NCBI RefSeq assembly: GCF_913774845.1
Contig: NZ_CAJYJO010000055.1
Origin: an uncultured Microbacterium sp.
GTDB lineage: Bacteria > Actinomycetota > Actinomycetes > Actinomycetales > Microbacteriaceae
DNA: 64,000 bases
Direction: 5' to 3' (one strand)
Shown here: piece after piece, positions 1 through 64,000 of the stretch
Layout of the letters: every line of letters begins with the position of its first letter
Numbering within the stretch: position 1 is the first letter of the stretch
Position numbers and translations under genes: made by a program
Notes under the pieces: model-generated
What the model saw: only the letters and a program-made list of their open reading frames with translations
Told to the model about the DNA's origin: nothing
Database searches by the model: none

Positions 1-384
1 GCCCCGGGCGATCGTGGTTGTGCTGCCGCAGCTTCCGACGAAGACCTGCGTGGTCACATAGGCGGACTCCTCGGCGTTGAGTCCGAGCGAGACCGTCGGG
101 GTGATCCGCCACCGAAGGGTGGTGCCGGATGCCGCGGTCTCTGTGACGCGCAGGGTCGCCGTGTCGCTCACCCCACCGGGGAACAGGGGTTTCCATGCCG
201 CCCAGTCACCCGTCCACTGCGTCGCGAGCGCGAAGGCTCCCGTGGCCGTGGCTCCGGCGTTCAGCGCGACGGATCGTTGCCACAGTGCGTGCGCCGCGGC
301 GGTCCCGGTCCACAGGACCAGGACCGCCGCGAGCACGCCACCCCACTTCAAGCGACGGATGGTGCTGTCGTCGCGATGGAGCAT
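1..384 (-). CDS. Secreted protein with SipW-class (alternate) signal peptide; runs off the left window edge
   Basis: Not in the ORF track; translated by hand from ATG at 384: MLHRDDSTIRRLKWGGVLAAVLVLWTGTAAAHALWQRSVALNAG. Basic N-region, hydrophobic core, AHALW cleavage-type motif; starts 9 nt after the stop of the 394-993 gene; open to base 1. Confidence 0.7.
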   Translation of the reverse strand, partial: MLHRDDSTIRRLKWGGVLAAVLVLWTGTAAAHALWQRSVALNAGATATGAFALATQWTGDWAAWKPLFPGGVSDTATLRVTETAASGTTLRWRITPTVSLGLNAEESAYVTTQVFVGSCGSTTTIARG

Positions 385-393
385 GGATCTACC

Positions 394-993
394 TCAGCTG
401 GATGCCTGGGTGAGCGAGAACGAGAGCTTGCTGAGATCCACGGGAGTGTTGACGCCGACGAGGTTCGGCGTGTTCGCGTCGAAGGTGACCGTCACCGTCG
501 CCTGCAGGGTGCCCGCCGTGGCGGGGGTGACCCGGTACGTGTTGGTGCCGGTCTGCGTTCCGAGGCCGGGGATGTTGACGGCGACCTTGACGTACTGCGC
601 GGCGGGTCCGGAGACGAAGTCTGCGGCTTGGGTCACGGCGAGGTCGGCCTGCAAGGTGTTGCCGATCAGGGTGACCGTGACGGGCTGCGTCAAGGTGAGG
701 ACGTCCCCCGGGACGATGCGGGCCGTGGTGGGGTCCGTCAGCGGGATGGCCGAGCCGAGGACGCCCTTCAAGCTCCAGGCGCTGGTGCCCAGCGTGAGAC
801 GGAGGTCGCCGGACTGCACGGTCCCGGCGGTCAGGGCCGTCGAGGTCGTCCAGTACGCATACGTCCCGCCTCCACCGAGGAGCAGAGCGGTACCGGCGGC
901 GATGGCGAGGATCGCCTTCGCCTTTCCGCGACGCGAGCGACGGGCGGCGCGGGTGGCGGGGATCGGGGCTGCGGTTTCGATGGACGGCGACAT
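394..993 (-). CDS. Alternate-signal (SipW-cognate) exported protein, TasA/camelysin-like
   Basis: KAILAIAAGTALLLGGGGTYAYW followed by GTVQSGDL is typical of SipW-class signal peptides; Thr/Gly-rich beta-type mature region. Confidence 0.8.
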   Translation of the reverse strand: MSPSIETAAPIPATRAARRSRRGKAKAILAIAAGTALLLGGGGTYAYWTTSTALTAGTVQSGDLRLTLGTSAWSLKGVLGSAIPLTDPTTARIVPGDVLTLTQPVTVTLIGNTLQADLAVTQAADFVSGPAAQYVKVAVNIPGLGTQTGTNTYRVTPATAGTLQATVTVTFDANTPNLVGVNTPVDLSKLSFSLTQASS

Positions 994-1142
994 GGCTTCT
1001 CCTGGGCACGTGCGACGGGTATTGCCCCGAAACTAAGAGTTCGGTGAGAGTTCGCCGCTACCGATCCGTCGGGCGCATCTACCGACTTTCGTGAGCGCTA
1101 CGTAGTCCTCGGTAGCAGCTCGGTAGCGCTAGCCTCGGGCGC

Positions 1143-1685
1143 ATGGAGATCGCCCCCGACGCCTCGGTCCTATCGCTTCGCGGCGCGACGCCCCGCCTGC
1201 ACGAGACCGCGTTCGTGGCATCCGGGGCCCGAGTCGTGGGCGACGTGACGCTGAGCGAGGGCACGAGCGTCTGGTACAACGCCGTCGTCCGCGGCGACAG
1301 CGCGGCGATCTCGATCGGTGCGCGGAGCAATCTGCAGGACAACGTGTCGGTGCACGTCGACGCCGGACGGCCGGTGGTCATCGGCACCGACGTGTCGGTC
1401 GGGCACAACGCCGTCGTGCACGGCTGCACGATCGGCGACGGATCGCTGATCGGCATGGGCAGCGTCGTGCTCTCGGGGGCGCAGATCGGCTCGGGGTGCC
1501 TCGTCGCCGGGGGAGCGGTGGTGCTCGAGGGGACGGTGATCCCCGACGGGTCGCTGGTCGCCGGCGTCCCGGCGAAGGTCCGGCGGCCGTTGACCGACGA
1601 GGAGCGGGAGAAGATCCTGCGCAACGCGCAGACCTACCTGGCCCACATCGACAGGCACCGCGCGGCCGTCGGTGCGAGCGACTGA
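1143..1685 (+). CDS. Gamma carbonic anhydrase family protein (left-handed beta-helix)
   Basis: Hexapeptide repeats; motifs VRGD, NLQDNVSVH and VGHNAVVHGCTIG carrying the metal-ligand histidines. Confidence 0.92.
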   Translation: MEIAPDASVLSLRGATPRLHETAFVASGARVVGDVTLSEGTSVWYNAVVRGDSAAISIGARSNLQDNVSVHVDAGRPVVIGTDVSVGHNAVVHGCTIGDGSLIGMGSVVLSGAQIGSGCLVAGGAVVLEGTVIPDGSLVAGVPAKVRRPLTDEEREKILRNAQTYLAHIDRHRAAVGASD

Positions 1686-1729
1686 GTCGTTGCGGGGGGA
1701 GTGCGCCCGGCTCAGGAGCCTGCGCGTTT

Positions 1730-1803
1730 TGGAGGGGCTGACGAGAATCGAACTCGCATCATCTGTTTGGAAGACAGAGGCTTTACCACTAAGCTACAGC
1801 CCC
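1730..1803 (-). tRNA. tRNA-Gly (anticodon TCC)
   Basis: Reverse complement folds as a cloverleaf: acceptor GGGGCTG/CAGCCCC, anticodon loop CTTCCAA, T-loop TTCGATT, encoded CCA. Confidence 0.97.
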
Positions 1804-1979
1804 GGATTTCCGCGGTTCTCGGTGAACCGGGGAACTCAACTCCTCCACTCTACGACACCAGCGGGCGCCCCGCGAACGCGAGCCTCCCGAGTGCCACGCG
1901 CCTCGCGGAAATCGGCGCTGCCAGGGTGATCGACTAGACTTTCAGCGGTCGTTTCGTCGGCGCGCGCCGCGCGCCGCCC

Positions 1980-2053
1980 CGGGGCGTAGCTCAGCTTGGT
2001 AGAGCGCCCGCTTTGGGAGCGGGAGGCCGCAGGTTCAAATCCTGTCGCCCCGA
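1980..2053 (+). tRNA. tRNA-Pro (anticodon TGG)
   Basis: Acceptor CGGGGCG/CGCCCCG, anticodon arm CCCGC-TTTGGGA-GCGGG, T-loop TTCAAAT; usual position upstream of tig. Confidence 0.97.
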
Positions 2054-2126
2054 CGTCACGGCCCCACAGACCACAGGCCCAACCGGCCCCCGCGTGCGCG
2101 CGGGCCACACGAGGAGAACGAACCGC

Positions 2127-3617
2127 ATGGTCAACAGCACCGTCGAGAAGCTCAGCCCCACCCGGGTGAAGCTGCACATCACGGTCTCGCCCGATGAGCT
2201 CAAGCCGAGCATCGCCCACGCCTACGAGCACATCGCGCGTGACGTGCAGATCCCGGGCTTCCGCAAGGGCAAGGTTCCCGCGCCCATCATCGACCAGCGC
2301 ATGGGTCGCGGCGCCGTCATCGAGCACGCTGTCAACGAGGGTCTCGACGGCTTCTACCGTCAGGCCGTCGAGGCGCAGGAGCTGCGCGTGATCGGCCGCC
2401 CGAGCGCCGAGATCGTCGAGCTGCCCGAGCTGAAGGACTTCTCCGGCGACCTGGTCGTCGACGTCGAGGTCGACGTCCGTCCGGAGTTCGACCTGCCCGC
2501 GTACGACACCATCACCGTGACGGTCGACAAGGCCGACATCGACGAGGCCGGTATCGACGCCGAGCTCGACCGTCTGCGCGCGCGCTTCGGCACGCTCGTC
2601 ACGGTCGACCGTCCCGCCACGACCGGCGACTTCGTCGAGCTCGACCTCGTCGCCACCATCGACGGCAACGTGATCGACCGCGCCGAGGGCGTGTCGTACG
2701 AGATCGGCTCCGGCGAGCTGCTCGAGGGCATCGACGAGGCGATCGAGTCGCTCACCGCCGACGAGCAGACCACGTTCCGCTCGAAGCTCGTCGGTGGCGA
2801 CCACGCCGGCGAAGAGGCCGAGGTCACCGTCACGATCAAGGCCGTCAAGGAGCGCGAGCTGCCCGACGCCGACGACGACTTCGCGCAGATGGCGTCGGAG
2901 TTCGACACCATCGGCGAGCTGCGCGAGTCGCTCGGCGAGCGCGTGTCGCAGCAGGCCGTGTTCACGCAGGGCTCCGCCGCGCGTGACAAGTTCATCGAGG
3001 CCTTGCTCGACGCCGTCGAGATCCCGGTTCCGCCGCAGCTCATCGAAGACGAGGTGCACCAGCACCTCGAGGGTGAGAACCGCCTCGAAGACGACGAGCA
3101 CCGCGCCGAGGTCACCGAGGCCAGCGAGAAGCAGTTCCGCACGCAGATGGTCCTCGACAAGATCGCCGAAGAGGCCAACGTCCAGGTCTCCCAGGACGAG
3201 CTGACGCAGTACCTCATCCAGTCGGCCGCCCAGTACAACATGGCGCCGCAGGACTTCGTCAACGCGCTGCAGCAGGGCAACCAGCTCCCCGCCCTCGTCG
3301 GCGAGGTCGCCCGCAACAAGGCGCTGGCCATCGCCCTCGGCAAGGTCACCGTCGTCGACACCGACGGCAAGACCGTCGACCTGACCGGCTTCGTCGCCGT
3401 GGAGGGCGAGGAGCCCGCCGAGGGCGACGACGACGCCGACGAGGCCCCGGCCGCTGACGAGGCGCCCGCGAAGGCCCCCGCCAAGAAGCGCGCCCCGGCC
3501 AAGAAGAAGGCCGCCGACGACGAGGCGTCCGCCGAGGACGCACCCGCGAAGGCTCCCGCCAAGAAGCGCGCGCCCGCCAAGAAGAAGACCGACGACGAGG
3601 CCGCTGCCGCCGAGTAA
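2127..3617 (+). CDS. tig: Trigger factor
   Basis: Ribosome-binding signature [14 protein letters not shown]-like domain, synteny with clpP/clpX; ATG at 2127 after a GAGGAG RBS. Confidence 0.97.
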
Positions 3618-3626
3618 GTCGAGACG

Positions 3627-3660
3627 AGGGGGCGGATGCCACGGCATCCGCCCCCTTTTC
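3627..3660 (+). terminator. Intrinsic terminator after tig, built from an inverted GGATGCC pair
   Basis: AGGGGGCGGATGCC-AC-GGCATCCGCCCCCT followed by a T run. Confidence 0.8.
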
Positions 3661-3722
3661 CGTTCCCGGATGCCGTGACCGCGGCGGGACACTCGACTCG
3701 GAGCGCGGACGAGGGAATGACG

Positions 3723-4211
3723 ATGAACGACTGGCAGAGCCGAGTGGATGCCGTCTGGGCCGACGACGGACTCAGCGCCGACGACGTGATCGAGCAGATC
3801 GACGCCCTGGCCGCGGAGCGCCCCGCCGACGACGCGGTGGCGTTGTTCGAGCGGGCCGGAGCGCGCGACTCGGCCGGTCTCGAGGTCGAGGCGGAGGCGC
3901 TGTACCGGCGCGCGCTCGCCCTCGGCCTCGACGACGAGCGGCGCACCCGCGCGACCATCCAGCTCGCGAGCACCATCCGCAACCTCGGCAAGACCGAGGA
4001 GGCGCTCGCGATGCTCGAGGCCGAGTACGGGCGCGAGCCCGACGGGCCGCTGCACGACGCGGCCGCCGCCTTCTACGCTCTCGCGCTCGTCTCGAAGGGG
4101 GAGCCCCAGCGGGCGGCATCCATCGCCCTTCAGGCACTCGCCCCGCACCTGCCGCGCTATACCCGGTCGGTGACCGGATACGCGCGCGAAATCGCCGACG
4201 ACACTCGCTGA
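3723..4211 (+). CDS. Tetratricopeptide-repeat-like protein
   Basis: Helical repeats such as EAEALYRRALALGL and QLASTIRNLGKTEEALAML; start could be 3717 or 3723. Confidence 0.8.
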   Translation: MNDWQSRVDAVWADDGLSADDVIEQIDALAAERPADDAVALFERAGARDSAGLEVEAEALYRRALALGLDDERRTRATIQLASTIRNLGKTEEALAMLEAEYGREPDGPLHDAAAAFYALALVSKGEPQRAASIALQALAPHLPRYTRSVTGYAREIADDTR

Positions 4212-4213
4212 TC

Positions 4214-4227
4214 CGCCCGCGGCGAAC
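4214..4227 (+). promoter_or_regulatory. Putative ClgR operator upstream of clpP1P2
   Basis: CGC-CCGCG-GCGAAC matches the reverse of the actinobacterial ClgR consensus GTTCGC-N5-GCG; a -10-like TAGATT lies at 4255-4260. Confidence 0.55.
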
Positions 4228-4289
4228 ACGGCATCCCGCCTCCGAGCCCGCCGGTAGATTCGTTGCAGATCACCGGAAGAGGAGCACTA

Positions 4290-4874
4290 ATGCCCGAACC
4301 CCTTATGGCAACGAGCGTCTTCGACAGGCTGCTGAAGGACCGCATCATCTGGCTCGGTTCGGAGGTGCGTGACGAGAACGCGAACGAGATCTGCGCGAAG
4401 ATCCTGCTTCTCGCCGCAGAAGACGCCGAGCGCGACATCTACCTGTACATCAACTCGCCCGGTGGCTCGATCACCGCGGGTATGGCCATCTACGACACGA
4501 TGCAGTTCGTGCCGAACGACATCGTCACCGTCGGCATCGGCATGGCGGCGTCGATGGGCCAGCTGCTGCTGACCAGCGGCACCAAGGGCAAGCGGTACAT
4601 CACGCCCAACGCCCGCGTGCTGCTGCACCAGCCGCACGGCGGCTTCGGCGGCACCTCGAGCGACATCCAGACGCAGGCGCAGCTCATCCTCGACATGAAG
4701 CGTCGACTGGCCGAGATCACCGCCAGCCAGACCGGCAAGAGCGTCGAGCAGATCAACGCCGACGGCGACCGCGACCGCTGGTTCTCGGCGCAGGAGGCCC
4801 TCGAGTACGGCTTCGTCGACCACATGCGCGAGCACGCCACCGACGTCACCGGCGGCGGCGGAACCGCAGCCTGA
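4290..4874 (+). CDS. clpP1: ATP-dependent Clp protease proteolytic subunit 1
   Basis: Motifs [14 protein letters not shown] and LHQP. Confidence 0.96.
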
Positions 4875-4897
4875 GCTGAGAGGAAACGGACACCATC

Positions 4898-5560
4898 ATG
4901 AACATCCCCACTTTCGGCGGCGCTGCATCGCACATGCCTTCGAGCCGCTACGTCCTTCCTCAGTTCGAGGAGCGCACGGCCTACGGCTACAAGCGCCAGG
5001 ACCCCTACAACAAGCTGTTCGAAGACCGCGTGATCTTCCTCGGCGTGCAGGTCGACGACGCGTCAGCCGACGACGTCATGGCTCAGCTGCTCGTCCTCGA
5101 GTCGCAGGACCCTGACCGCGACATCATCATGTACATCAACTCGCCGGGTGGCTCCTTCACGGCCATGACGGCGATCTACGACACGATGCAGTACGTCTCG
5201 CCGCAGATCCAGACGGTCGTGCTCGGTCAGGCCGCCTCCGCGGCATCCGTCCTTCTCGCCGCGGGCGCGCCCGGCAAGCGTCTCGCCCTGCCGAACGCGC
5301 GCATCCTGATCCACCAGCCCGCCATGGGCGAGGCCGGACACGGACAGGCCTCCGACATCGAGATCCAGGCGGCGGAGATCCTCCGCATGCGCACCTGGCT
5401 CGAGGAGACCATGGCCCGCCACACCGGACAGGAAGCCGCGAAGGTCAACAAGGACATCGACCGCGACAAGATCCTCTCGGCCCAGGAGGCCATGGAGTAC
5501 GGCATCGTCGACCAGGTCCTCACGACCCGCAAGCGCACTCCGGCGGCCCTCACCGCCTGA
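4898..5560 (+). CDS. clpP2: ATP-dependent Clp protease proteolytic subunit 2
   Basis: Motifs [14 protein letters not shown] and IHQP; tandem clpP pair typical of Actinobacteria. Confidence 0.96.
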
Positions 5561-5578
5561 GGCCCTCGCGCCACGATC

Positions 5579-5612
5579 AGCCCCGCAGACCCGTTTCGGT
5601 CTGCGGGGCTTC
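5579..5612 (+). terminator. Hairpin terminator after clpP2
   Basis: AGCCCCGCAGACC-CGTTTC-GGTCTGCGGGGCT, a 13-bp perfect stem. Confidence 0.75.
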
Positions 5613-5632
5613 GTCGTGCGCGCCGCGCTGAT

Positions 5633-5698
5633 CGCGTGAGTCGCCAGGATTTGTCGCTTCGGCGTCCGCCCAGGCGACAAAAAGTGGCGACTCGCGCG
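5633..5698. repeat. Bulged REP-like palindrome
   Basis: GAGTCGCCA-GGA-TTTGTCGC...GCGACAAA-AAG-TGGCGACTC inverted repeat with an internal loop. Confidence 0.55.
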
Positions 5699-5802
5699 GT
5701 GGGGGGAACGCCGCGGCGCGCGCAAATGCCCTCGGATGTCGTGGGCTCGGGTTAGGCTCGGGTAACACACCGGCGGGGGCCGGGTGACGGGAGGAACCGG
5801 CC

Positions 5803-7071
5803 ATGGCACGCATCGGTGAGAGCGCCGACCTGTTCAAGTGCTCCTTCTGCGGCAAGAGCCAGAAGCAGGTGCAGCAGCTGATCGCCGGTCCCGGCGTGTA
5901 CATCTGCGATGAGTGCGTCGAGCTGTGCAACGAGATCATCGAAGAGCGCATGGCCGAATCCTCGGCCGGCGAGGTCGCCGAGTTCGACCTGCCCAAGCCC
6001 CGCGAGATCTTCTCGTTCCTCGAGGAGTACGTCGTCGGTCAGGAGCCCGCCAAGCGCGCCCTCGCCGTCGCGGTGTACAACCACTACAAGCGCGTCCGTG
6101 CGCACGGCACCCTGCAGCCCGCCGAGCAGCGCGCCGAAGAGATCGACATCGCCAAGAGCAACATCCTCCTGCTCGGGCCCACCGGTTGCGGCAAGACCTA
6201 CCTCGCACAGACGCTCGCGAAGCGCCTCAACGTGCCCTTCGCGGTGGCCGATGCCACGGCCCTCACCGAGGCCGGCTACGTCGGCGAAGACGTCGAGAAC
6301 ATCCTCCTCAAGCTCCTGCAGGCGGCCGACTTCGACGTGAAGCGCGCCGAGACCGGCATCATCTACATCGACGAGGTCGACAAGATCGCCCGAAAGGCCG
6401 AGAACCCCTCGATCACGCGCGACGTGTCGGGTGAGGGCGTTCAGCAGGCGCTGCTGAAGATCCTCGAGGGAACGGTCGCCTCGGTCCCCCCGCAGGGCGG
6501 CCGCAAGCATCCGCACCAGGAGTTCATCCAGATCGACACGACGAACGTCCTGTTCATCGTGGCCGGCGCCTTCGCGGGTCTCGAGGAGATCATCTCGGCC
6601 CGAGTCGGCAAGCACGGTGTCGGCTTCGGCGCTCCGCTGCACCGCAAGGAGGACGCTCCCGACCTCTTCAGCGAGGCGCTTCCCGAAGACCTGCACAAGT
6701 TCGGCCTGATCCCGGAGTTCATCGGCCGTCTGCCCGTCGTCGCCTCCGTGTCGCCCCTCGATCAGGACGCCCTGATGGAGATCCTCACCGCGCCGCGTAA
6801 CGCGCTCGTCAAGCAGTACCAGCGCATGTTCGAGCTCGACGGCGTGCAGCTCGAGTTCGATGAAGACGCCCTGCGCGCGATCGCCGATCTCGCCGTCGCC
6901 CGCAAGACCGGTGCCCGAGGCCTCCGTGCGATCCTCGAAGACGTTCTCGGCCCCATCATGTTCGATGTGCCCTCCGCCGACGACATCGCCAAGGTGGTCA
7001 TCACGCGCGCGGCCGTCGAAGACGGCGCGCAGCCGACGATCGTGCTCGCGCAGAAGCGTCGCAGCGCCTGA
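5803..7071 (+). CDS. clpX: ATP-dependent Clp protease ATP-binding subunit ClpX
   Basis: N-terminal zinc finger CSFCGK...CDECVELC, Walker A GPTGCGKT, Walker [25 protein letters not shown]. Confidence 0.98.
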
Positions 7072-21800: not shown

Positions 21801-22383
21801 CGGGATCACCCACCGCCTCTCCGTGAACGCCCGCGCCGCGGGTCCGCGCCTGGGCAAGCAGGTGCAGCAGGCCATCAAGGCTGCGCGTGAGGGCGCCTGG
21901 AGCGAGGTCGACGGACAGGTCGTCGCCGGCGGCATCCCGCTCGAACCTGCGGAGTACGACCTCGTCGTCGAGACCGCGGGTCGACCCGAGGGAGAGGCTC
22001 TTGCGGTGCTGTCCAGCGGCGGCTTCGTGCTGCTCGACACCGTCACCACCCCCGAGCTCGAGGCCGAGGGTCTGGCGCGCGACATGATCCGCGGCATCCA
22101 GGACACCCGTAAGGCCGCCGGCTTCGACGTGAGCGACCGGATCGCCCTCACCCTCACGTTCGACGACGCCGGTGACGCCGCGGCCGTGGCTCAGGCGTTC
22201 GACGTGGCGGGCGTGGCATCCGAGACCCTCGCCGAGAGCGTCGTGCTCGCGAGCCGCACCGAGCGACTCATCGAGCGCGGGAACGTCGGGGCGCCGCAGT
22301 TCGAGAACGTCCTCATCGCCAGGACCTATGCGAACGTCGGTGCCGTCACGGTGGCCGTGGCGCGGATCGGAGCCCCCGCATGA
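18886..22383 (+). CDS. ileS: Isoleucine--tRNA ligase
   Basis: [24 protein letters not shown] and KMSKS; carries an in-frame repeat-derived insert at about 21091-21195. Confidence 0.97.
21096..21195. repeat. Two inverted copies of the 25-nt palindrome plus a partial duplicate inside ileS
   Basis: GGTGGCTGAGTCCGTCGAAGCCTCC (21096-21120), GGTCCCTTCGACGGGCTCAGGGACC (21144-21168), and CAGGGACCTCGGTC duplicated. Confidence 0.85.
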
Positions 22384-43143: not shown

Positions 43144-43166
43144 CGCGCACGGAAGCGGATCCAGTG

Positions 43167-43346
43167 AACGGATGCGGATGCCGGCGATCCCGGCATCCGC
43201 ATCCGTTGCTGTTCTCCGCATCCGGCGCAGGTCCGCGCATCGCGCCGTGGAGTCGGCTCCTGCGTCGCGGAATCGGCCCTGCGCAACAGATGCGGATGCC
43301 ATCGCCCCTGGCATCCGCATCCGTCACCGTCCTCCGCATCCGGCGC
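43167..43346. repeat. Two ~62-nt palindromic units spaced 118 bp apart
   Basis: AAC(G/A)GATGCGGATGCC-N8/9-GGCATCCGCATCCGT-N8-CTCCGCATCCGGCGC at 43167-43228 and 43285-43346. Confidence 0.8.
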
Positions 43347-50921: not shown

Positions 50922-50931
50922 TCCGTCGTCC

Positions 50932-50980
50932 CGGATGCCACGTCCTCGCCGTTCCTTCGAGCGGTGGGACGTGGCATCCG
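50932..50980. terminator. Hairpin between the convergent leuS and DUF2087 genes, closed by a GGATGCC pair
   Basis: CGGATGCCACGTCC...GGACGTGGCATCCG. Confidence 0.7.
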
Positions 50981-51014
50981 TCGTTCGCGCTGTCCCCGGA
51001 GGGTTGTGACGCTC

Positions 51015-51620: not shown

Positions 51621-52256
51621 ATGACCGCCCCGCCCGTCGCCGCCGCAGAGTCCGAGCGGCTCGCCGCACCGGATGCGAGACGACGGATCGGCGTCGGCGC
51701 GATCCTGGTGATCGTCCTGCTCGCGTTCGCCGCCGTCGTGGTCATCGGCATGCTCCGCGGCACGACCGGGACGCAGATCGTCGCCGCGTCGCCGACGCCG
51801 TCCGCCGCCGTGCTCGCCCCCGCGACGGCCGGGGTGTATGTCCATGTGGCCGGCGCCGTCCGCGCGGTGGGCCTGTACCGACTCGACGTGGGCGGCCGCG
51901 TCGCCGACGCCATCGCCCTCGCCGGCGGCTTCGCCGACGACGCCGACCGCGCCGGGGTCAATCTGGCCCGCCCCGTCACCGACGGTGAGCAGATCGTCGT
52001 GCCCGTCCTCGGCGCGATCCCGGATGCCGTCGCCCCCGGCGCCGCCGCGAACGGTGCGGCCGGAGGGCTCATCGACCTCAACGCCGCCACGGCGGACCAG
52101 CTCGACACCCTGCCACGGGTGGGCCCCGCGATGGCCGAGCGCATCATCTCGTGGCGCGAGCAGAACGGACGGTTCACGAGCGTCGACGACCTGCTGTCTG
52201 TCCCCGGTATCGGCGACAAGATGCTGGCCGCCATTCGAGACCTGGTGCGGGTATGA
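51621..52256 (+). CDS. comEA: Competence protein ComEA (SLBB plus helix-hairpin-helix)
   Basis: VHVAGAV, DLNAATADQLDTLPRVGP and VPGIG. Confidence 0.92.
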   Translation: MTAPPVAAAESERLAAPDARRRIGVGAILVIVLLAFAAVVVIGMLRGTTGTQIVAASPTPSAAVLAPATAGVYVHVAGAVRAVGLYRLDVGGRVADAIALAGGFADDADRAGVNLARPVTDGEQIVVPVLGAIPDAVAPGAAANGAAGGLIDLNAATADQLDTLPRVGPAMAERIISWREQNGRFTSVDDLLSVPGIGDKMLAAIRDLVRV

Positions 52257-54560
52257 CGGGCAGGCGTGCCCTCCAGCGTCGTGCCCTGCGCGCTGTGGCG
52301 GTGGCGCTCACGACCTGGTCGGCCGCGGGGGTGGCGACGGTCGTCCCTGACGCGAGGCCCCTCGCCGTCGCTCTGGGCGTCGCGACGCTCGTGGGCGTGG
52401 CCGTCTCCTGGCGCCGCCCCGCGCCCATCCTCACGGTTTTCACGGTCGCCCTCGCGTGCGCGGCGGCCACTGCGGCATCGGTGGCGTCGGTGGCTCCCGT
52501 ACGTGACGACCTCTCCGGTCTGCAGGTCGAGGGCGGCCGCCACCTCGAGCTCGAGGCCACCGTCACCGGCCGCATCGACGCGCAGTCGGACGGCGGCGCC
52601 CGATTCGACGCGCTCGTCTCGGTCGTCCGGGCGGGGTCCGTCCGCCTCGGCGGCACCGTGCCGGCGCGCATCATGGTCCCCGCCGATCAGACGGCCGCTC
52701 TGGCCTCCGCGGGCCCCGGCAGCGCGGTGCGCCTGGAGGCGCGCGCGATTCCCGCCGATCCCGCGGAACGCGCGGCCCTCGTCGCCCGCGTGAGCGACGT
52801 GCTCGAGGCGAGTGCTCCCGAGGGGATCTGGGGCTGGTTCGAGCACCTGAGACGCGGTCTCGTCGCCTCGACGCACGGCCTCCCTCAACCGGGCGCCGGA
52901 CTCGTCCCCGGGCTCGCCGTCGGCGACACCTCGATGCTCGACGTCGCGACCGAGGATGCCATGAACGCCTCCTCGCTGTCGCACCTCACGGCCGTCTCGG
53001 GTGCCAACTGCGCGATCGTCGTGGCCGCCGCCTTCGCCCTCCTCGCCGCGTGCGGTGCACCGCGCGGCGTCCGCATCGTCGGTGCCGTGGTCGTCCTGGC
53101 GGCGTTCGTCATCCTCGTCACCCCCGAACCCAGCGTGATCCGCGCGGCGGTCATGGCGACGATCGCGCTTCTCGCCCTGGCACTCGGCCGTCCGGCCGTC
53201 GGCGTCGCGGTGCTCGCGTTCGCAGCGACCGTCCTGCTCGTCATCGACCCGTGGCTCGCCCGCTCGATCGGTTTCGCCCTGTCGGCCGCGGCGACGGGCG
53301 CTCTGCTGCTCCTGGCTCGACCCCTGGCCGCGGGTCTCGAGCGATGGATGCCGCGCTCCCTCGCCCTCGCGATCGCCGTGCCCACGTCGGCACAGCTCGC
53401 CTGCGGCCCGCTCATCGTGCTCATCGACCCGCACGTCCCGCTCCTCGGCGTGGCCGCGAACATGCTCGCCGACCCCGCTGCCGCGCCCGCGACGATCGCG
53501 GGTGCGCTCGCCTGCATCGCGCCGGTCCCGTGGCTCCGTGACGGTCTCACCGCACTCGCCTGGGTCCCCGCCGCGTGGATCGCCGCCGTCGCCCACACCG
53601 CATCGGGCATCGCGCAACAGAACCTCCCGTGGCCCGACGGCATCCTCGGCGCGGGCCTGCTTGCCCTCGTCGGGGCGGCGATCGCCGTCCACGTGATCGC
53701 ACCGCGTCGGTTGCCCCGGCTCACGGCCGGCTCGACCCTCGTCGTCGCCCTGGTCACCGGACTCGTCCTCGGGCAGACGACGGTGCGCACGGTGGCCGGT
53801 CCCCTCACCGTACCGGCGGACTGGCAGGTGGCGATGTGCGACGTGGGGCAAGGCGACGCGACGCTCTGGCGCTCGGGCGCGGCCACCGCGCTCGTCGACG
53901 CGGGGGAGGACCCGGAGCCGATCACTGCCTGTCTGCAAACCTTCGGTGTCGACCGCATCGATCTGCTGGTGCTCACCCACTTCGACCGCGACCACGTCGG
54001 CGGGGCGCCCGCGCTGATCGGGCGGGTCGGCACCGTCCTGCACGGCCCCGTGGGCGAATCGTCCGAACAGAGACTCCTCGACGCGTTCGCCTCCGCGGGT
54101 GCCTCCGTGACGGCCGCGACCCTCGGCATGACGGGTGAGATCGGGACGACGCGCTGGCAGGCGCTCGGTCCCGCACCGAAGGCGCAAACCGGCAACGACG
54201 CGAGCATCGCCCTCGATGTCTCCGGCCCCGGCTTCCCGCGGACCGTGCTGCTCGGCGACCTGGGCGAGGACGCTCAGCAGGCCCTCCTGCGACGCGTCGA
54301 CGTCCCGACCGTCGACGTGGTCAAGGTCTCGCACCACGGCAGCGCCGACCAGGATCCCGAGCTCTACCGTCGCCTGCGCGCGAGCGTGGCGCTCGTCGGT
54401 GTCGGTGCCGACAACCGGTACGGGCATCCGACGCCGTCCCTGATGGCGCTTCTGACCTCGCTCGGCACCACGATCGGCCGCACCGACCAGGACGGGGCGC
54501 TCGCGGTGTGGTCGACCGACGGGGCCCTGTCGTTGTGGCGCGAGCGAGATCGCGCGCCCT
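52253..54560 (+). CDS. comEC: Competence protein ComEC/Rec2; homology ends near 54550 but the frame stays open to 55804
   Basis: LSHLTAVSGAN, PSVIRAA and metallo-beta-lactamase domain DVGQGD, THFDRDH, HHGS, NRYGHP. The end coordinate is the approximate end of homology, not a stop codon. Confidence 0.85.
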
Positions 54561-54625
54561 CGACCCCGGATGCCACCCTCCCGCCATCGCCGGCCGGCTC
54601 GGCCCCGTCCCACCGGCGCCGGTCG

Positions 54626-54647
54626 TGTCGGAGGCGGTCGGTAGGCT
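54626..54647 (+). promoter_or_regulatory. RecA-NDp/PafBC-type promoter of holA (leaderless)
   Basis: TGTCGGAG-N8-TAGGCT, 6 nt before the GTG. Confidence 0.65.
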
Positions 54648-54653
54648 GGGGGA

Positions 54654-55691
54654 GTGACCCCCGCTCCGCGACGCTCGGCCCCGGCGAAGGCCAAGACGGC
54701 CATCCCGCAGGTGTCATGGCGCGCCCCGCAACCAGCTCCGATCGTGCTCGTCTCGGGTCCCGAAGAGGTGTGCGCGGAGCGCGCCATCGCCGGTGTCCGC
54801 GCGATGCTGAAGAGCGAAGACCCGAGCCTCGAGGTCACCGACATCCGTGCCGACGATTACGCCGCCGGCACCCTCCTCGCGGTCACCTCGCCCTCGCTCT
54901 TCGGCGAGCCCCGCCTCGTCCGCATCAGCGGCGTCGAGAAATGCAGCGACACCTTCCTCACCGAGGCCGTCTCCTACCTCTCGCAGACGCAGGACGGCGC
55001 GACCGTCGTCTTGCGCCACACGGGCGCGAGCGTCCGCGGCAAGAAGCTGCTCGACGGCATCCGCGCGGGGCAGGGCGGGGGGATCGAGATCGCCTGTCCC
55101 GCCGTCAAGCGCGACTCCGACCGTTTCGACTTCGCCGTGGGAGAGTTCAAGGCGGCGCAGAAGCGCATCGCCCCGGTCGCGCTCCGGTCGCTCGTCTCGG
55201 CCTTCGCCGACGACCTCACCGAGCTCGCCGCCGCCTGCCAGCAGCTCATCGCCGACGTCCCGGGCGACATCGACGAGCGCACCGTCGAGCGGTACTACGG
55301 GGGTCGCGTCGAGACCTCCGCCTTCACGGTCGCCGACACCGCGATCGCCGGACAGTACGGCCCCGCGCTGCTCGCTCTGCGTCACGCCCTGGCATCCGGA
55401 GCCGACCCCGTACCGCTGGTGGCCGCCGTGGCCATGAAGCTGCGCACCATGGCGCGGGTCGCGGGCACCCGGGAATCCTCCTCGGCGCTCGCCCAGCGGC
55501 TGGGGATGAAGGACTGGCAGGTCGACCGCGCCCGCCGCGACCTCGTCGGCTGGACCGGACACACGCTCGGCATGGCGATCCACGCGACGGCGCGCGCCGA
55601 CGCCGAGGTCAAGGGCGCCTCCCGCGACGCGGTATTCGCTCTGGAGCGCATGATCACCGTCATCGCGACGCGCACCCCCTACGGCGGCTGA
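54654..55691 (+). CDS. holA: DNA polymerase III subunit delta
   Basis: SPSLFGEPR, ELAAACQQL and YYGGRVETSAF; conserved comEC-holA-rpsT synteny. Confidence 0.92.
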   Translation: MTPAPRRSAPAKAKTAIPQVSWRAPQPAPIVLVSGPEEVCAERAIAGVRAMLKSEDPSLEVTDIRADDYAAGTLLAVTSPSLFGEPRLVRISGVEKCSDTFLTEAVSYLSQTQDGATVVLRHTGASVRGKKLLDGIRAGQGGGIEIACPAVKRDSDRFDFAVGEFKAAQKRIAPVALRSLVSAFADDLTELAAACQQLIADVPGDIDERTVERYYGGRVETSAFTVADTAIAGQYGPALLALRHALASGADPVPLVAAVAMKLRTMARVAGTRESSSALAQRLGMKDWQVDRARRDLVGWTGHTLGMAIHATARADAEVKGASRDAVFALERMITVIATRTPYGG

Positions 55692-60638: not shown

Positions 60639-61855
60639 TGGGCGGACCGCTTCCGCTCGGAGACCCCGCCCCGGCCGACGGCCGTCTCCCCGACGACCTC
60701 GACATCGATCCCGCCGCCGACTTCGGCGTGTATCTGCACGTGCCGTTCTGCCGCGTGCGCTGCGGGTACTGCGACTTCAACACCTACACCGCGAGCGAGC
60801 TGCGCGGCGCCCGGCAGGACGACTTCGCCGACACGCTCGCCGGCGAGGTGCGTCTGGCCGCAGAGGTGATGGATGCCGCCGGCGCCCGGCGGGCGGCATC
60901 CACCGTCTTCTTCGGGGGAGGGACGCCCACCCTCCTCCCGCCCGGCGATCTGGCGCGAATGCTCGACGCGGTGCGCGCGCAGTTCGGGATCGCGGACCGA
61001 GCCGAGGTGACCGTCGAGGCGAACCCCGACACCGTCGACGACACGGTCGCCGGCACGCTCGCCGACGCCGGGGTCACCCGCCTGTCGATCGGCATGCAGT
61101 CGGCCCGGCCGCACGTGCTCGCCGCCCTCGACCGCACGCACGACCCCGCGAACGTCGCCACGGCCGTCGCCGCGGCCCGCCGCGCGGGGCTCGACGTCTC
61201 GGTCGACCTGATCTACGGCGCGCCGGGGGAGTCGCTCGATGACTGGCGTGCGTCTCTCGACGCCGCCGTGGCTCTCGAACCCGACCACATCTCCGCCTAC
61301 GCCCTCATCGTCGAGGACGGCACGAAGCTCGCGCGGCAGATCCGCTCCGGCGCGGTCGCCGAGCCGTCCGACGACCTGCAGGCCGACATGTACGAGCTGG
61401 CCGACGAGCTGCTCGGCGCGGCCGGCTACGACTGGTACGAGGTGTCGAACTGGTCGCGGGGGGTCTCGCACCGCTCGCGCCACAACCTGGCGTACTGGCG
61501 GGGCACGGACTGGTGGGGCTTCGGTCCCGGCGCCCACAGCCACGTCGCGGGTCTGCGCTGGTGGAACGTGAAGCACCCGGCCGCGTACGCGCAGCGTCTG
61601 GTGGCGGGGGAGTCGCCCGCCGCCGCGCGCGAACGTCCGGACGAGACGGCGCGACGCCTCGAATCCGTGCTGCTGCGCAGTCGCATCCGCGAGGGGCTCG
61701 CGGTGTCGGAGATCCTCGGCGAGGGGCGCAGGGCCGTGGCATCCCTCATCGCCGACGGGCTCATCGAGGGCGCGGATGCCGTGCGGGGGCGCATCGTGCT
61801 GACGTTGCGCGGTCGCCTGCTGGCGGATGCCGTGGTGCGGGCGCTCACGGTCTGA
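60638..61855 (+). CDS. hemW: Radical SAM heme chaperone HemW
   Basis: YLHVPFCRVRCGYCDF CxxxCxxC, FFGGGTP, YEVSNW; located between lepA and hrcA. Confidence 0.9.
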   Translation: MGGPLPLGDPAPADGRLPDDLDIDPAADFGVYLHVPFCRVRCGYCDFNTYTASELRGARQDDFADTLAGEVRLAAEVMDAAGARRAASTVFFGGGTPTLLPPGDLARMLDAVRAQFGIADRAEVTVEANPDTVDDTVAGTLADAGVTRLSIGMQSARPHVLAALDRTHDPANVATAVAAARRAGLDVSVDLIYGAPGESLDDWRASLDAAVALEPDHISAYALIVEDGTKLARQIRSGAVAEPSDDLQADMYELADELLGAAGYDWYEVSNWSRGVSHRSRHNLAYWRGTDWWGFGPGAHSHVAGLRWWNVKHPAAYAQRLVAGESPAAARERPDETARRLESVLLRSRIREGLAVSEILGEGRRAVASLIADGLIEGADAVRGRIVLTLRGRLLADAVVRALTV

Positions 61856-61949
61856 CCGCTGTCGTCGGCCCGCGCCGTGGATCCCCGGGCGCCATGACGG
61901 CCGCGGAGGCAGTTCAGGCGTGACACCCGTCCGCGTGCCCCCGGCGCAG

Positions 61950-61971
61950 TGTCGGAGCGATCCCGTAGAAT
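61950..61971 (+). promoter_or_regulatory. RecA-NDp/PafBC-type promoter upstream of hrcA
   Basis: TGTCGGAG-N8-TAGAAT. Confidence 0.6.
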
Positions 61972-61997
61972 TGGCACTCAACTGAGTCGAGTGCCAG
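61971..61997. promoter_or_regulatory. CIRCE operator (HrcA binding site)
   Basis: TTGGCACTC-N9-GAGTGCCAG against the consensus TTAGCACTC-N9-GAGTGCTAA. Confidence 0.92.
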
Positions 61998-62013
61998 GCG
62001 GAAGGAGCAGATC

Positions 62014-63054
62014 ATGGTGTCGGAACGCGGACTCCAGGTGCTCCGCGCGATCGTGCAGGACTACGTCGACACGCGCGAGCCGGTCGGGAGTAAGGCCATC
62101 GTCGAGCGTCATGCCTTCGGGGTGTCGGCCGCGACGATCCGCAACGACATGGCACTGCTCGAAGACGAAGACCTCATCGTCGCGCCTCACACCTCGTCGG
62201 GGCGCGTCCCGACCGACAAGGGCTACCGCGTCTTCGTCGACCACCTGGCCGAACTGCGACCGCTCTCCGGTGCGCAGCGCAGCGCCATCACCTCCTTCCT
62301 CGACGAAGCGGGCGACCTCGACGACCTGCTCGCGCGCACGGTGCGCGCGCTCACGCAGCTCACCGGCCAGGTCGCGATCGTGCAGTACCCCTCGTTCGCG
62401 CGCGCCAACCTGTCCCACGTCGAGCTCGTCGCCCTCGGCGGTCCGCGGGTGCTCGTGGTCCTCGTCACCGACACCGGCCGCGTCTCGCAGCGCATCGCGC
62501 TCGTCGTGGCCGAGCCCACCGAGAACGACATCGCGCACCTGCGCGCGCGGGTCGGTTCCCTTCTCGTCGGACGCAGCGTCGCCGACTGCGTGCAGCAGGT
62601 GACCACGACGCTCGCCGACGGCCCCCGCCCCGGCAACACCCTCGACGCCATCGCCGACGCCGTCCTCCGCGTCGTCGGGGAGGAGCTCGAGGAGTTCCGC
62701 CAAGACCGTCTGGTCATGGCCGGCGCGGCGACGCTCGCGAAGCGCGAGTCGGACTTCCGCGGCAGCATCTACCCGCTCCTCGAGGCCATCGAAGAGCAGG
62801 TGACGCTGCTGCGGCTGATGAGCGAGATGGTCGCCGATGAGCAGGGACTGTCGGCGAGCATCGGTCGCGAGAACGAACCGTTCGGCCTCGTCGAGGCATC
62901 CGTCCTGGCGAGCCGGTACAAGGGCTCGGCCGGCGGCGCCCGGGTGGGCCTGCTCGGCCCGACCCGCATGGACTACTCCTCCAACCTCGCGGCGGTCCGC
63001 GCCGTCGCGCACTATCTGACCCGGATGCTCGAAGACGACGACAGCGCGCGCTGA
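62014..63054 (+). CDS. hrcA: Heat-inducible transcription repressor HrcA
   Basis: [31 protein letters not shown] and GPTRMDY. Confidence 0.97.
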
Positions 63055-63104
63055 CGAGCTCCCTCCCCGAGAACGACCCCGCGACAGCGGGCAGGAAGGC
63101 GATT

Positions 63105-64000
63105 GTGGCTGACCACTACGAGGTCCTGGGCGTCGAGCGCGACGCCAGCCCCGAAGACATCAAGAAGGCGTACCGCCGCCTTGCGCGTCAACTGCACCCG
63201 GATGTCAACCCGGGTGAGGACGCCTCCGAGCGCTTCAAGCTGGTGACCCACGCCTACGACGTGCTGAGCGACCCCGAGCAGCGTCGTCGCTACGACATGG
63301 GCGGCGACCAGAGCCCGTTCGGCGGCGGGGGAGCGGGCGGCTTCGGCGGCTTCAGCGACATCTTCGAGACGTTCTTCGGGGGCGCGCAGGGCGGCGGCGG
63401 CGGACGCGGGCCCCGGCCTCGCTCACGTCGCGAGCGGGGGCAGGACGCCCTCGTGCGCGTCACTCTGCAGCTCGGTGACGTCGTCTTCGGCACCCACCGC
63501 GACCTCGAGGTCGACACCGCCGTGCTGTGCGAGACGTGTCAGGGCGCCTGCACGCAGCCGGGCACCAGCGAGGTCACGTGCGACATCTGCCACGGCTCCG
63601 GTCACGTGCAGCGCACGGTCCGCAGCCTTCTCGGCAACGTCGTGACGAGCGCGCCGTGCACGGTGTGCCAGGGGCACGGCACGACCATCCCCTATCCCTG
63701 CGGCACCTGCCAGGGCCAGGGTCGCGTGCGCGCCCGCCGCACCGTCTCGGTCGACATCCCCGCCGGCGTCGAGTCGGGACTGCGCCTGCAGCTGCCCGGA
63801 TCGGGCGAGGTCGGACCCGCGGGCGGACCCAACGGCGACCTGTACCTCGAGATCACCGTCGAGGCGCACGACGCCTTCAGCCGCGAGGGCGACGACCTCG
63901 TCGCGACCCTCGAGGTCTCGATGCCGGATGCCATCCTGGGTGCCAACACCACGATCGAGTCCCTCGACGGCAGCGTCGACCTCGAGGTGCGCCCGGGCGT
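63105..64000 (+). CDS. dnaJ: Chaperone DnaJ; runs off the right window edge
   Basis: [11 protein letters not shown] motif, G/F-rich region and four CxxCxGxG repeats; GTG start at 63105. Confidence 0.96.

What the first reader, a model, noticed from the sequence alone, without database searches (positions are those of the whole stretch)
1..64000. Highly iterated heptamer GGATGCC/GGCATCC across the window (uptake-sequence- or HIP1-like signal)
Seen: my line-by-line tally gives about 105-110 copies of GGATGCC plus its complement, roughly even between strands and often as CGGATGCCG or CGGCATCCG. A zero-order model at 70% GC predicts about 15, so the excess is about 7-fold. Inside genes the motif uses otherwise disfavoured codons (GAT for Asp in GCG-GAT-GCC; GCA for Ala in GCG-GCA-TCC). 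I found no copies in the tig, clpX, rplU or rpmA coding regions, or in most of the low-GC effector gene. Between genes it forms inverted pairs in terminator-like hairpins (3634/3643, 43176/43192, 43294/43310, 50933/50973). Established: Neisseria and Pasteurellaceae DNA-uptake sequences show this pattern, including inverted pairs in terminators; cyanobacterial HIP1 is an iterated motif linked to methyltransferases. Inference: this lineage carries a genome-wide recognition word for DNA uptake, methylation-directed repair, recombination or nucleoid organisation. The lack of strand bias argues against a Chi- or KOPS-like role.
Basis: partly seen in the sequence, partly recalled or inferred. Interest (0 to 1): 0.85.

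Follow-up and report, generated by a model that had tools for sequence, protein, structure and literature searches.

The report
Strand-tiled genome-wide DNA word in Microbacterium
This Microbacterium chromosome carries about 5,600 copies of the 8-base word GGATGCC(G/A), written even against its codon habits and spaced so that each DNA strand is covered separately; it looks like a 'self' tag of the kind known from Neisseria, Haemophilus and cyanobacteria, I found no published description of it in this bacterial group, and its reader is unknown.

Summary
The window has 113 copies against about 13 expected. The 3.37-Mb Microbacterium genome has 5,571 copies (1 per 605 bp).

- **Uniqueness:** GGATGCC and its complement rank first and second of all 16,384 heptamers against a codon-preserving null, and first in intergenic DNA.
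- **True word:** GGATGCCR.
- **Strand behaviour:** it shows no replication-strand polarity. Copies pointing the same way avoid each other over about 1 kb; opposite copies do not. Eight control words lack this effect, and it replicates in related genomes.
- **Turnover:** single copies are not positionally conserved.
- **Gaps:** foreign low-GC islands lack the word. In highly expressed genes it is lost only where it costs a rare codon.
- **Relatives:** they show variants, (C)GGATGC with a variable seventh base, and GGATCC in Leucobacter and Clavibacter.
- **Methyltransferase:** a conserved orphan DNA methyltransferase exists but also occurs in motif-free Curtobacterium, so it does not explain the word.

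Best reading: a DUS/USS/HIP-like self tag read one strand or one direction at a time. I found no report of it in the papers I could search.

The parts
1..64000 (.). 113 dispersed copies of GGATGCC/GGCATCC (55 +, 58 -). By 8-mer: GGATGCCG 83, GGATGCCA 22, GGATGCCC 5, GGATGCCT 3. Adjacent copies: 50 same sense, 62 opposite.
   Evidence: genome-wide context
3618..3666 (+). Terminator-like hairpin directly after tig. The top of its stem is the convergent pair GGATGCC (3634) / GGCATCC (3643), and a U-run follows.
   Evidence: -34.1 kcal/mol, z -6.6; tig = 2127-3611
43160..43214 (+). Hairpin downstream of the MFS permease gene. Its stem is built from nested GGATGCG + GGATGCC words (pair 43176/43192).
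   Evidence: -41.4 kcal/mol, z -8.3
43278..43332 (+). Second hairpin of the same type, 118 bp downstream (pair 43294/43310).
   Evidence: -26.7 kcal/mol, z -4.7
50915..50997 (+). Long hairpin between convergent genes (48348-50918 + and 51018-51512 -). The pair 50933/50973 forms the lower stem.
   Evidence: -48.2 kcal/mol, z -8.65; genes
60855..60917 (+). Convergent pair 60871/60895 forming a strong hairpin inside a coding region (gene 60638-61852).
   Evidence: -40.3 kcal/mol, z -4.0
18886..22380 (+).
2127..7068 (+). Motif-poor stretch. tig (2127-3611) and clpX (5803-7068) each hold 0 copies where 2.5 and 2.1 are expected at the genome mean.
   Evidence: explained by opportunity and codon cost
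51621..54742 (+). comEA (51621-52250; SLBB + HhH) and comEC (52250-54742; Competence + metallo-beta-lactamase) upstream of holA. This is the DNA-import channel, a generic candidate machine for an uptake-type reading and not shown to read the word.

Best explanation
GGATGCCR is a lineage-specific 'self' word of the same kind as DNA uptake sequences (DUS/USS) and cyanobacterial HIP words. It is a short protein-recognition site kept at about one copy per 1.2 kb on each strand of the native chromosome.

Shown:
- The word is maintained at the DNA level, against codon preference.
- The force per site is about as strong as translational codon selection.
- Individual copies turn over, and density rather than position is what is kept.
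- The benefit of a new copy falls if a copy of the same sense lies within about 1 kb. It does not fall if the neighbour has the opposite sense.

Inferred:
- The most likely setting is the handling of linear or single-stranded conspecific DNA. That means import through ComEA/ComEC and/or end processing and recombination. Tagged DNA would then be favoured, and the tag would spread by weak selection or recombination-coupled drive.
- The reader protein itself is not identified.
For: - Excess over codon-preserving and Markov nulls; top-ranked word in both CDS and intergenic DNA.
- Equal density in coding (1.64/kb) and intergenic DNA (1.69/kb).
- A 24-fold shift in GAT:GAC odds in the G_GCC context.
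- Motif-free gaps longer than 4 kb are low-GC islands.
- No replichore polarity against the GGGGGAG marker: 2,006 vs 2,089.
- Opportunity-site occupancy rises from 7-8% (same-sense copy within 50 bp) to 32-34% (0.8-2 kb away). It is flat with respect to opposite-sense copies.
- Eight control words are flat.
- Same-sense spacing CV is 0.966, against 1.067 +/- 0.011 after orientation shuffling.
- The effect replicates in 21 loci of related genomes: 71 same vs 110 opposite at 30-300 bp, p = 0.005.
- Only 17 of 100 aligned copies are conserved in motif-bearing relatives.
- In top codon-bias genes the rare-codon frames drop to 10-15% occupancy, while the free frame stays at 91%.
- Lineage variants exist around a (C)GGATGC core, with GGATCC in Leucobacter and Clavibacter. 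The excess is absent in 62 loci of other Actinomycetota.
- Convergent pairs cap terminator hairpins, as DUS pairs do in Neisseria.
- comEA/comEC and AdnAB are present.
Against: - No reader has been found.
- I know of no report of natural transformation in Microbacterium.
- A crude screen found no Flp pilin or TadA-type ATPase.
- In Haemophilus, uptake is independent of USS orientation and position (PMC1939737). The orientation-specific spacing is therefore not what a classical uptake drive predicts.
- One-substitution neighbours are not enriched (O/E about 1.0), unlike decayed USS/DUS copies.
- The word is only 8 bp long.
- I could not test plasmids or phages.
- I could not build whole-genome phyletic profiles (genome search closed).
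Confidence: 0.45

Rival explanations
1. One-strand methyl mark (HIP-like). A conserved orphan methyltransferase modifies one strand of the asymmetric word. After replication each daughter duplex keeps marks only at copies of one orientation, so each orientation class must tile the genome. The mark would serve strand or self discrimination in repair, recombination or transformation.
For: - The frequency of 1,654 copies per Mb lies in the HIP range of 1,000-2,000 per Mb, and HIP variants include GGGATCCC (PMC4390886).
- A core N6_N4 methyltransferase (g955, contig C30:48619-49563) sits in high-GC, motif-rich DNA beside a lipoate ligase gene. It is conserved at 70-95% identity across Microbacterium.
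- 15 of 16 syntenic orthologue loci are motif-rich.
- The model naturally predicts per-orientation tiling without replichore polarity.
- Recognition is sharp.
Against: - The same syntenic enzyme occurs in motif-free Curtobacterium, at 77-81% identity to the Agromyces, Cryobacterium and Leifsonia orthologues (L014 and L100). It therefore does not track the word.
- Its specificity is unknown; the closest solved relatives are M.RsrI, CcrM and M.MboIIA.
- The other methyltransferases found lie in foreign, motif-free islands.
- No nicking or Vsr-type partner was found.
Confidence: 0.2
2. Chi-type regulator of a double-strand-break helicase-nuclease (AdnAB or RecBCD). It would be recognised on one strand from one direction and serve two-ended breaks, so that both orientations are needed everywhere.
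For: - It is an 8-mer.
- The spacing is orientation-specific, with a length scale of about 1 kb.
- It is depleted in foreign DNA.
- The word differs between lineages.
- An AdnA/AdnB pair is present.
- No Chi is known for AdnAB (PMC5314763).
Against: - Every characterised Chi is skewed towards one replichore strand (my recollection of the field); this word is 49:51.
- AdnAB has been argued to be Chi-independent.
- The enrichment is much stronger than I recall for Chi.
- A palindromic variant (GGATCC) in sister genera fits a one-directional single-strand signal poorly.
Confidence: 0.08
3. Binding sites of an abundant chromosome-structuring (nucleoid-associated) or global DNA-binding protein that recognises the near-symmetric CGG-ATG-CCG.
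For: - The outer arms CGG...CCG are symmetric.
- There are thousands of sites in both coding and non-coding DNA.
- HIP1 has been proposed to act in chromosome architecture (PMC5861425).
Against: - A symmetric dimer would not distinguish orientations, yet only same-sense copies interfere.
- Flank preferences are asymmetric: +1 is R in 95% of copies, -1 is Y in 66%.
- No candidate protein is known.
Confidence: 0.1
4. Neutral by-product of a context-specific mutation or very-short-patch-type repair bias, with no function.
For: - The synonymous precursor GGACGCC is depleted (O/E 0.53).
- Copies turn over rapidly.
- A repair ratchet has been proposed for HIP words.
Against: - A local bias cannot sense another copy up to 1 kb away, nor its orientation.
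- No m5C-methyltransferase or Vsr motifs were found.
- Aligned non-motif states differ at 2-3 positions and by several mutation types.
Confidence: 0.04

Closest known systems
DNA uptake sequences: DUS of Neisseriaceae (eight dialects, read by the minor pilin ComP) and USS of Pasteurellaceae
   Same: - Short exact word at about one copy per kb, in equal numbers on both strands and without replichore polarity.
- Present inside genes and between them.
- Inverted pairs occur in terminator hairpins.
- One-letter dialects occur among related genera.
- Scarce in foreign DNA.
(PMC12061091, PMC1939737)
   Different: - The host is a Gram-positive actinobacterium with no ComP or type IV pilin reader known.
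- The word is only 8 bp, with no extended flanks.
- Single-mismatch variants are not enriched.
- Spacing interference is orientation-specific, whereas USS uptake is orientation-independent.
- Uptake specificity is untested.
HIP1 (GCGATCGC) and the alternative HIP words of cyanobacteria (e.g. GGGATCCC)
   Same: - GC-rich 8-mer at 1,000-2,000 copies per Mb that overrides codon use.
- Lineage variants replace one another.
- The sister-genus word CGGATCCG is a GATC-centred palindrome like the HIP words.
- An orphan methyltransferase is conserved in the lineage.
- HIP1 is now proposed to aid transformation.

   Different: - The word here is not a palindrome.
- Copies are not positionally conserved (17 of 100), whereas HIP1 sites are reported as conserved.
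- The conserved methyltransferase does not track the word.
- Per-orientation spacing has no counterpart for a palindrome.
Chi sites (e.g. GCTGGTGG of E. coli, AGCGG of Bacillus subtilis)
   Same: - A species-specific 5-8-mer, over-represented in native DNA and read from one direction.
- A helicase-nuclease (AdnAB) is present.

   Different: - It shows no leading-strand skew.
- The enrichment is far stronger.
- No Chi is known for AdnAB.
Iterated word CGGCATAC/GTATGCCG reported by this scan in Dermatophilales (unpublished AI notes)
   Same: - It differs from CGGCATCC/GGATGCCG by one base.
- It is reported at about one copy per 1-2 kb, against codon use, with same-sense copies avoiding each other over about 1.5 kb.
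   Different: It comes from another family, and I did not examine it. It is a lead only, not independent evidence.

Membership tests
DNA uptake sequences (DUS/USS) | Genome-wide over-representation of one exact word beyond codon and composition effects | tested here: met
DNA uptake sequences (DUS/USS) | Equal use of both strands, with no replichore polarity | tested here: met
   2,770 + / 2,801 -; 2,006 vs 2,089 relative to GGGGGAG
DNA uptake sequences (DUS/USS) | Preferential uptake or transformation by DNA carrying the word | not testable with these tools
   Needs uptake assays. comEA/comEC are present; no Flp/Tad genes were found by a crude screen.
DNA uptake sequences (DUS/USS) | Action independent of the word's orientation (shown for USS) | tested here: not met
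   Interference occurs only between same-sense copies, in contrast to PMC1939737.
DNA uptake sequences (DUS/USS) | Dialects among related genera around a conserved core | tested here: met
   (C)GGATGC core with a variable 7th base; GGATCC in Leucobacter and Clavibacter
HIP words (HIP1 class) | Palindromic word | tested here: not met
   GGATGCC differs from its complement GGCATCC. Only the sister-genus word CGGATCCG is palindromic.
HIP words (HIP1 class) | 1,000-2,000 copies per Mb, overriding codon use | tested here: met
   1,654 per Mb
HIP words (HIP1 class) | A cognate methyltransferase present wherever the word is abundant, and specific for it | tested here: inconclusive
   The orphan N6_N4 methyltransferase is present in all motif-rich loci examined, but also in motif-free Curtobacterium. 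Its specificity is unknown.
HIP words (HIP1 class) | Sites conserved between genomes more than controls | tested here: not met
   17 of 100 aligned copies are kept, about the background expectation at 66% third-position identity. The sample is small.
Chi sites | Skew towards one replichore strand | tested here: not met
   49.0% vs 51.0%
Chi sites | Cognate helicase-nuclease encoded | tested here: met
   AdnA/AdnB-like pair, each with UvrD and PD-(D/E)XK domains. RecBCD was not checked.
Chi sites | Orientation-dependent attenuation of the nuclease and stimulation of recombination | not testable with these tools
   Only the indirect per-orientation spacing is available.
KOPS / FtsK-orienting polar sequences | Strong polarity from origin to terminus | tested here: not met
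   Per-contig bias equals the binomial expectation. The genome's polar word is GGGGGAG.
Dcm/Vsr-type patch-repair over-representation | m5C methyltransferase plus Vsr endonuclease; effect purely local | tested here: not met
   No PCQxFS or GCFWH motif in six frames (regex only). The effect reaches about 1 kb and depends on orientation.
REP/MITE-type dispersed repeats | Conserved sequence beyond the core; mainly intergenic | tested here: not met
   No information beyond -1 and +1; 85% of copies are in genes.

The most novel reading that the evidence does not exclude
The word is not an uptake tag. It is an intracellular, strand-specific repair signal that must tile each strand separately. It could be the missing Chi-equivalent for the actinobacterial AdnAB/RecBCD machines acting at two-ended breaks. 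Alternatively it could be a parental-strand or self mark used by the MutS/MutL-less (NucS-type) mismatch repair of Actinobacteria, whose strand discrimination, as far as I recall, is not understood.
Probability: 0.15. Interest if true: 0.9.

Novelty: new variant of a known kind. Interest (0 to 1): 0.72.

Why it matters
Sequence-specific 'self' words are established for only a few Gram-negative lineages (Neisseriaceae, Pasteurellaceae) and for cyanobacteria. Even there, their purpose is debated.

Here a high-GC Gram-positive family carries such a word, and it has an extra property: each orientation tiles the genome independently.

This makes several open questions experimentally approachable in easily grown, non-pathogenic soil bacteria:
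- Do Actinobacteria discriminate conspecific DNA during uptake or recombination?
- Does AdnAB have a Chi-like signal?
- What are HIP-like words for?

Practically, adding or removing the word could change how well DNA can be introduced into Microbacteriaceae. The word is also a sharp marker for native versus acquired DNA in these genomes.

Tried and rejected
- **The genome search closed:** no whole-genome phyletic profiles of the word against gene content.
- **The look-up of sequencing runs closed:** no look for motif-linked miscalls in raw long reads.
- **Raw GC skew as replichore proxy:** rejected because here it follows gene strand (rho -0.58). My first polar-word window test mixed words of opposite sign and was redone with GGGGGAG alone.
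- **Clavibacter 'dialect' ACGGAGAC:** retracted. It is a single local (GACGGA)n tandem repeat.
- **Phage route:** a WhiB query returned mostly mycobacteriophages, and the motif status of the Microbacterium phage hosts is unknown. Dropped.
- **Plasmid route:** a ParA query returned no Microbacterium plasmids among the rows shown. Dropped.
- **Methyltransferase link:** pursued through and downgraded after the Curtobacterium result.
- **Cluster names for methyltransferase representatives:** uninformative.
- **Ribosomal-protein operon gap:** first looked like active avoidance in highly expressed genes. Rejected, because it has few opportunity sites and the cost-free frame stays occupied.
- **Generic direct-repeat (slippage) avoidance as the cause of same-sense depletion:** rejected by eight flat control words.
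- **Literature searches** for the word, for Chi in AdnAB organisms and for uptake sequences in Actinobacteria: no prior description found.

Full report
**1. The observation**

An exact search finds 113 copies of GGATGCC/GGCATCC in the window (55 on +, 58 on -). Dinucleotide-preserving shuffles give 12.6 +/- 3.6.

The window is C55:43645-107644 of a 3.37-Mb, 55-contig, 70.5% GC assembly. ClpX is 89% identical to that of named Microbacterium species.

Genome-wide there are 5,571 copies, one per 605 bp, on every contig above 5 kb at 1.1-2.6 per kb. CGGATCGG-type extensions are common: CGGATGCCG is the commonest 9-mer, and GGATGCCG is the second commonest 8-mer.

**2. Is it more than codon usage?**

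Under it, codon-driven words such as TCGACGA reach 17x, against 7x for the motif.

I built a gene model of 2,853 genes covering 85% of the genome and shuffled synonymous codons within each gene.
- In sense orientation GGATGCC is expected 395 +/- 20 times and observed 2,091 times. GGCATCC is expected 910 +/- 19 and observed 2,599.
- Ranking all 16,384 heptamers against this null puts the two orientations first and second (z = 86 and 56). The best unrelated words reach about 40.
- In 505 kb of intergenic DNA the word is again first: 860 copies against 173 under a 3rd-order Markov model.
- Density is the same between genes (1.69/kb) and within them (1.64/kb).

Inside genes the word uses three frames: xxG-GAT-GCC (1,863), GGC-ATC-C (1,318) and xxG-GCA-TCC (1,165). 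After a G-ending codon, Asp-Ala is written GAT-GCC in 61% of cases, against 6% after a C-ending codon.

Protein composition is barely touched. The dipeptide Asp-Ala is at 1.17x and Ala-Asp at 0.98x.

Flanks add one informative position. Base +1 is G in 73% and A in 22% of copies, and both 8-mers are about 8x enriched. Base -1 is C in 45% (58% in intergenic copies). Nothing further is conserved. The word is therefore GGATGCCR.

One-substitution neighbours sit at O/E 0.9-1.15, so recognition looks sharp. The synonymous precursor GGACGCC is depleted to 0.53.

**3. Where it is and is not**

- Gaps longer than 4 kb without the word are almost all low-GC islands (0.59-0.66 GC).
- One exception is a 10.8-kb run of small co-directional genes that looks like the ribosomal-protein operon. 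It offers only 23 opportunity sites.
- In the 60 most codon-biased genes, occupancy of the two rare-codon frames falls to 10% and 15.5% (genome-wide 23% and 19%). The cost-free GGC-ATC-C frame stays at 91%.
- So expression does not exclude the word. The force that keeps it competes with codon selection at similar strength.
- About 85 intergenic convergent pairs genome-wide cap long GC-rich hairpins with T-containing tails. Density is 2.23/kb in convergent spacers, 1.71 in tandem and 1.44 in divergent.

**4. Strand behaviour (the main new result)**

The genome has a clear polar word, GGGGGAG. It is polarised in 124 of 141 20-kb windows, 62.5% of coding DNA is co-oriented with it, and it runs 25:1 in this window. 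Relative to it the motif lies 2,006:2,089. Per-contig bias of the motif's 8-mer forms equals the binomial expectation. This excludes a KOPS-like role and the replichore skew of classical Chi.

Locally, however, orientation matters.
- Adjacent copies are same-sense only 40% of the time (2,208 vs 3,308).
- Among all pairs the same-sense share is 22% at under 30 bp, 30-36% at 60-200 bp and 42% at 200-300 bp. It reaches about 49-50% only beyond 600-1,000 bp.
- The effect holds within genes, between genes and in intergenic DNA. Convergent and divergent arrangements are equally common.

To control for protein sequence I scored 15,732 'opportunity sites', where the amino acids allow the word synonymously.
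- Occupancy climbs from 7-8% when a same-sense copy lies within 50 bp, to 17-19% at 200-300 bp, to 29-34% at 0.8-2 kb.
- It is flat (about 18-25%) against distance to the nearest opposite-sense copy.
- Eight ordinary control words are flat in both respects.

Same-sense spacing is more regular than after orientation shuffling. CV is 0.966 against 1.067 +/- 0.011. The share of spacings under 300 bp is 15.1% against 20.6 +/- 0.3%.

The effect replicates in 21 loci from other motif-rich genomes. Adjacent pairs are 212 same vs 285 opposite (p = 0.001). At 30-300 bp they are 71 vs 110 (p = 0.005).

A purely local mutation or repair bias cannot sense another copy a kilobase away, let alone its sense. 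The pattern is what diminishing returns would give if each orientation has to cover the genome on its own.

**5. Evolution**

In about 21-kb clpX loci of 80 Actinomycetota:
- The word is enriched 2-5x in Microbacterium, Agromyces and Cryobacterium, and weakly in Amnibacterium.
- It is not enriched in Curtobacterium, Labedella, Rhodoglobus or Rhodoluna.
- It is not enriched in 62 loci outside the family (pooled O/E 0.93).
- Leucobacter luti has no copy at all but 45 dispersed GGATCC sites (7.2 expected). Clavibacter has 31 (6.9 expected).

Across more loci the conserved core is (C)GGATGC, with a lineage-specific seventh base. It is C here (113 C, 20 G, 8 T, 0 A), G in L086, and T in L133 and L004.

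An apparent Clavibacter word was a local tandem repeat and is withdrawn.

Copies are not positionally conserved. Of 100 window copies aligned to motif-bearing relatives, 17 are kept, roughly the background expectation at this divergence. The aligned states often differ at 2-3 positions (small sample).

**6. Candidate readers**

- No m5C-methyltransferase or Vsr signature occurs in six frames (regex only).
- Three DNA methyltransferases lie in foreign low-GC islands.
- A fourth, g955 (C30:48619-49563, N6_N4_Mtase), sits in motif-rich core DNA beside a lipoate-ligase gene. It is conserved at 70-95% identity across Microbacterium. Its nearest solved relatives are M.RsrI, CcrM and M.MboIIA.
- I fetched 80 metagenome loci encoding its relatives. 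15 of 16 syntenic orthologue loci are motif-rich, and motif status clusters on the enzyme tree.
- The exception, L100, is a Curtobacterium. The same enzyme is annotated in Agromyces, Leifsonia, Cryobacterium and other genera at 77-81% identity to it.
- The methyltransferase is therefore a family-wide core gene that does not track the word. A one-strand methyl-mark model remains possible but has lost its main support.
- The window encodes ComEA and ComEC, and the genome encodes an AdnAB-type pair. Both are generic in Actinobacteria.

**7. Comparison with known systems**

- **DUS/USS:** abundance, strand symmetry, hairpin pairs, dialects and scarcity in foreign DNA match (PMC12061091; PMC1939737). 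Orientation-independent action, reported for USS, does not match.
- **HIP words:** the frequency range and the existence of replacing variants match (PMC4390886). Palindromy, site conservation (PMC5861425) and a tracking methyltransferase do not. HIP1 itself is now proposed to be an uptake-type signal.
- **Chi:** direction-dependence matches, but replichore skew does not. No Chi is known for AdnAB (PMC5314763).

I found no paper describing this word in Microbacteriaceae.

Earlier notes of this scan report the same word in other Microbacterium genomes. They also report a one-letter-different word (CGGCATAC) in Dermatophilales with the same same-sense avoidance. Those notes are leads, not independent evidence. 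I measured the avoidance here myself.

**8. Verdict**

This is a real, strong, lineage-specific genomic word, best filed as a new variant of the DUS/USS/HIP kind of 'self' tag. Its distinguishing feature is per-orientation tiling.

My estimates:
- about 0.45 for an uptake or recombination self tag read strand- or direction-specifically;
- 0.20 for a one-strand methyl mark;
- 0.08 for a Chi-type signal;
- 0.10 for a structural DNA-binding protein;
- 0.04 for a neutral bias.

Noticed in passing
window 1-64000 (GGGGGAG 25 copies, CTCCCCC 1); genome-wide: A KOPS-like polar word. GGGGGAG (best 8-mer CGGGGGAG, 510 copies, 90% per-contig polarity) is almost always on one strand per region. 62.5% of coding DNA is co-oriented with it, so it is a likely FtsK-orienting sequence and a handy replichore marker for this draft genome.
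   Followed up: partly
genome-wide CDS: Words containing CCTGG or GGACC, and xxG-GAC codon pairs, are depleted to 0.15-0.4 of the synonymous-shuffle expectation. This may reflect avoidance of CCWGG/GGWCC restriction sites or a codon-pair effect. C7 homopolymers occur 3 times against 525 expected.
   Followed up: no
G000 contig C30:48619-49563 (outside the window): A core orphan N6_N4 DNA methyltransferase next to a lipoate-protein ligase gene. It is syntenic and conserved across Microbacteriaceae (Microbacterium, Curtobacterium, Agromyces, Leifsonia, Cryobacterium and others). Its specificity and role are unknown.
   Followed up: partly
G000 C5:10282-18134, C15:20234-21598, C19:49838-51196 (outside the window): Three further DNA methyltransferase genes lie in motif-free low-GC islands: a Type III Mod-like gene flanked by two ~970-aa genes, an SPPY-type gene and an Eco57I-type gene. 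They are probably mobile restriction-modification or defence islands.
   Followed up: no
L016 (Leucobacter luti) and L009 (Clavibacter michiganensis), whole loci: GGATCC, often as CGGATCCG and in GGATCCGGATCC doublets, is dispersed at 2.1 and 1.5 per kb, against 0.2-0.5 per kb in other loci. It is a palindromic counterpart of the Microbacterium word, differing by one central base.
   Followed up: partly
L009:171-260: A perfect (GACGGA)15 tandem repeat at the edge of the Clavibacter locus. It briefly mimicked a dispersed over-represented word.
   Followed up: yes
window 51621-55685: A comEA-comEC-holA gene row. My GC3-based gene model missed comEC (52250-54742), because a longer overlapping open frame competed with holA.
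   Followed up: yes
G000 C45:39242-41768 (outside the window): Repeated coding units GAC-GGC-ATC-CNG-GAT-GCC (Asp-Gly-Ile-x-Asp-Ala) place the two orientations of the word back to back, 8 bp apart, in what looks like a calcium-binding-type repeat protein.
   Followed up: no
L025 (WNZI01000002.1): A record titled Vibrio cholerae strain 35D carries a 67.6% GC clpX locus whose product is 73% identical to this actinobacterial ClpX. The contig is probably a contaminant or mislabelled (Micrococcaceae-like).
   Followed up: no
G000 C17:92961-103767 (outside the window): A 10.8-kb run of about 21 small co-directional genes ending in a 440-aa gene, probably the S10-spc-secY ribosomal operon (inferred from gene sizes only). 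It holds a single copy of the word and has a distinct codon usage (GGT, CGT, GCT raised; GGG, CGG nearly absent).
   Followed up: partly
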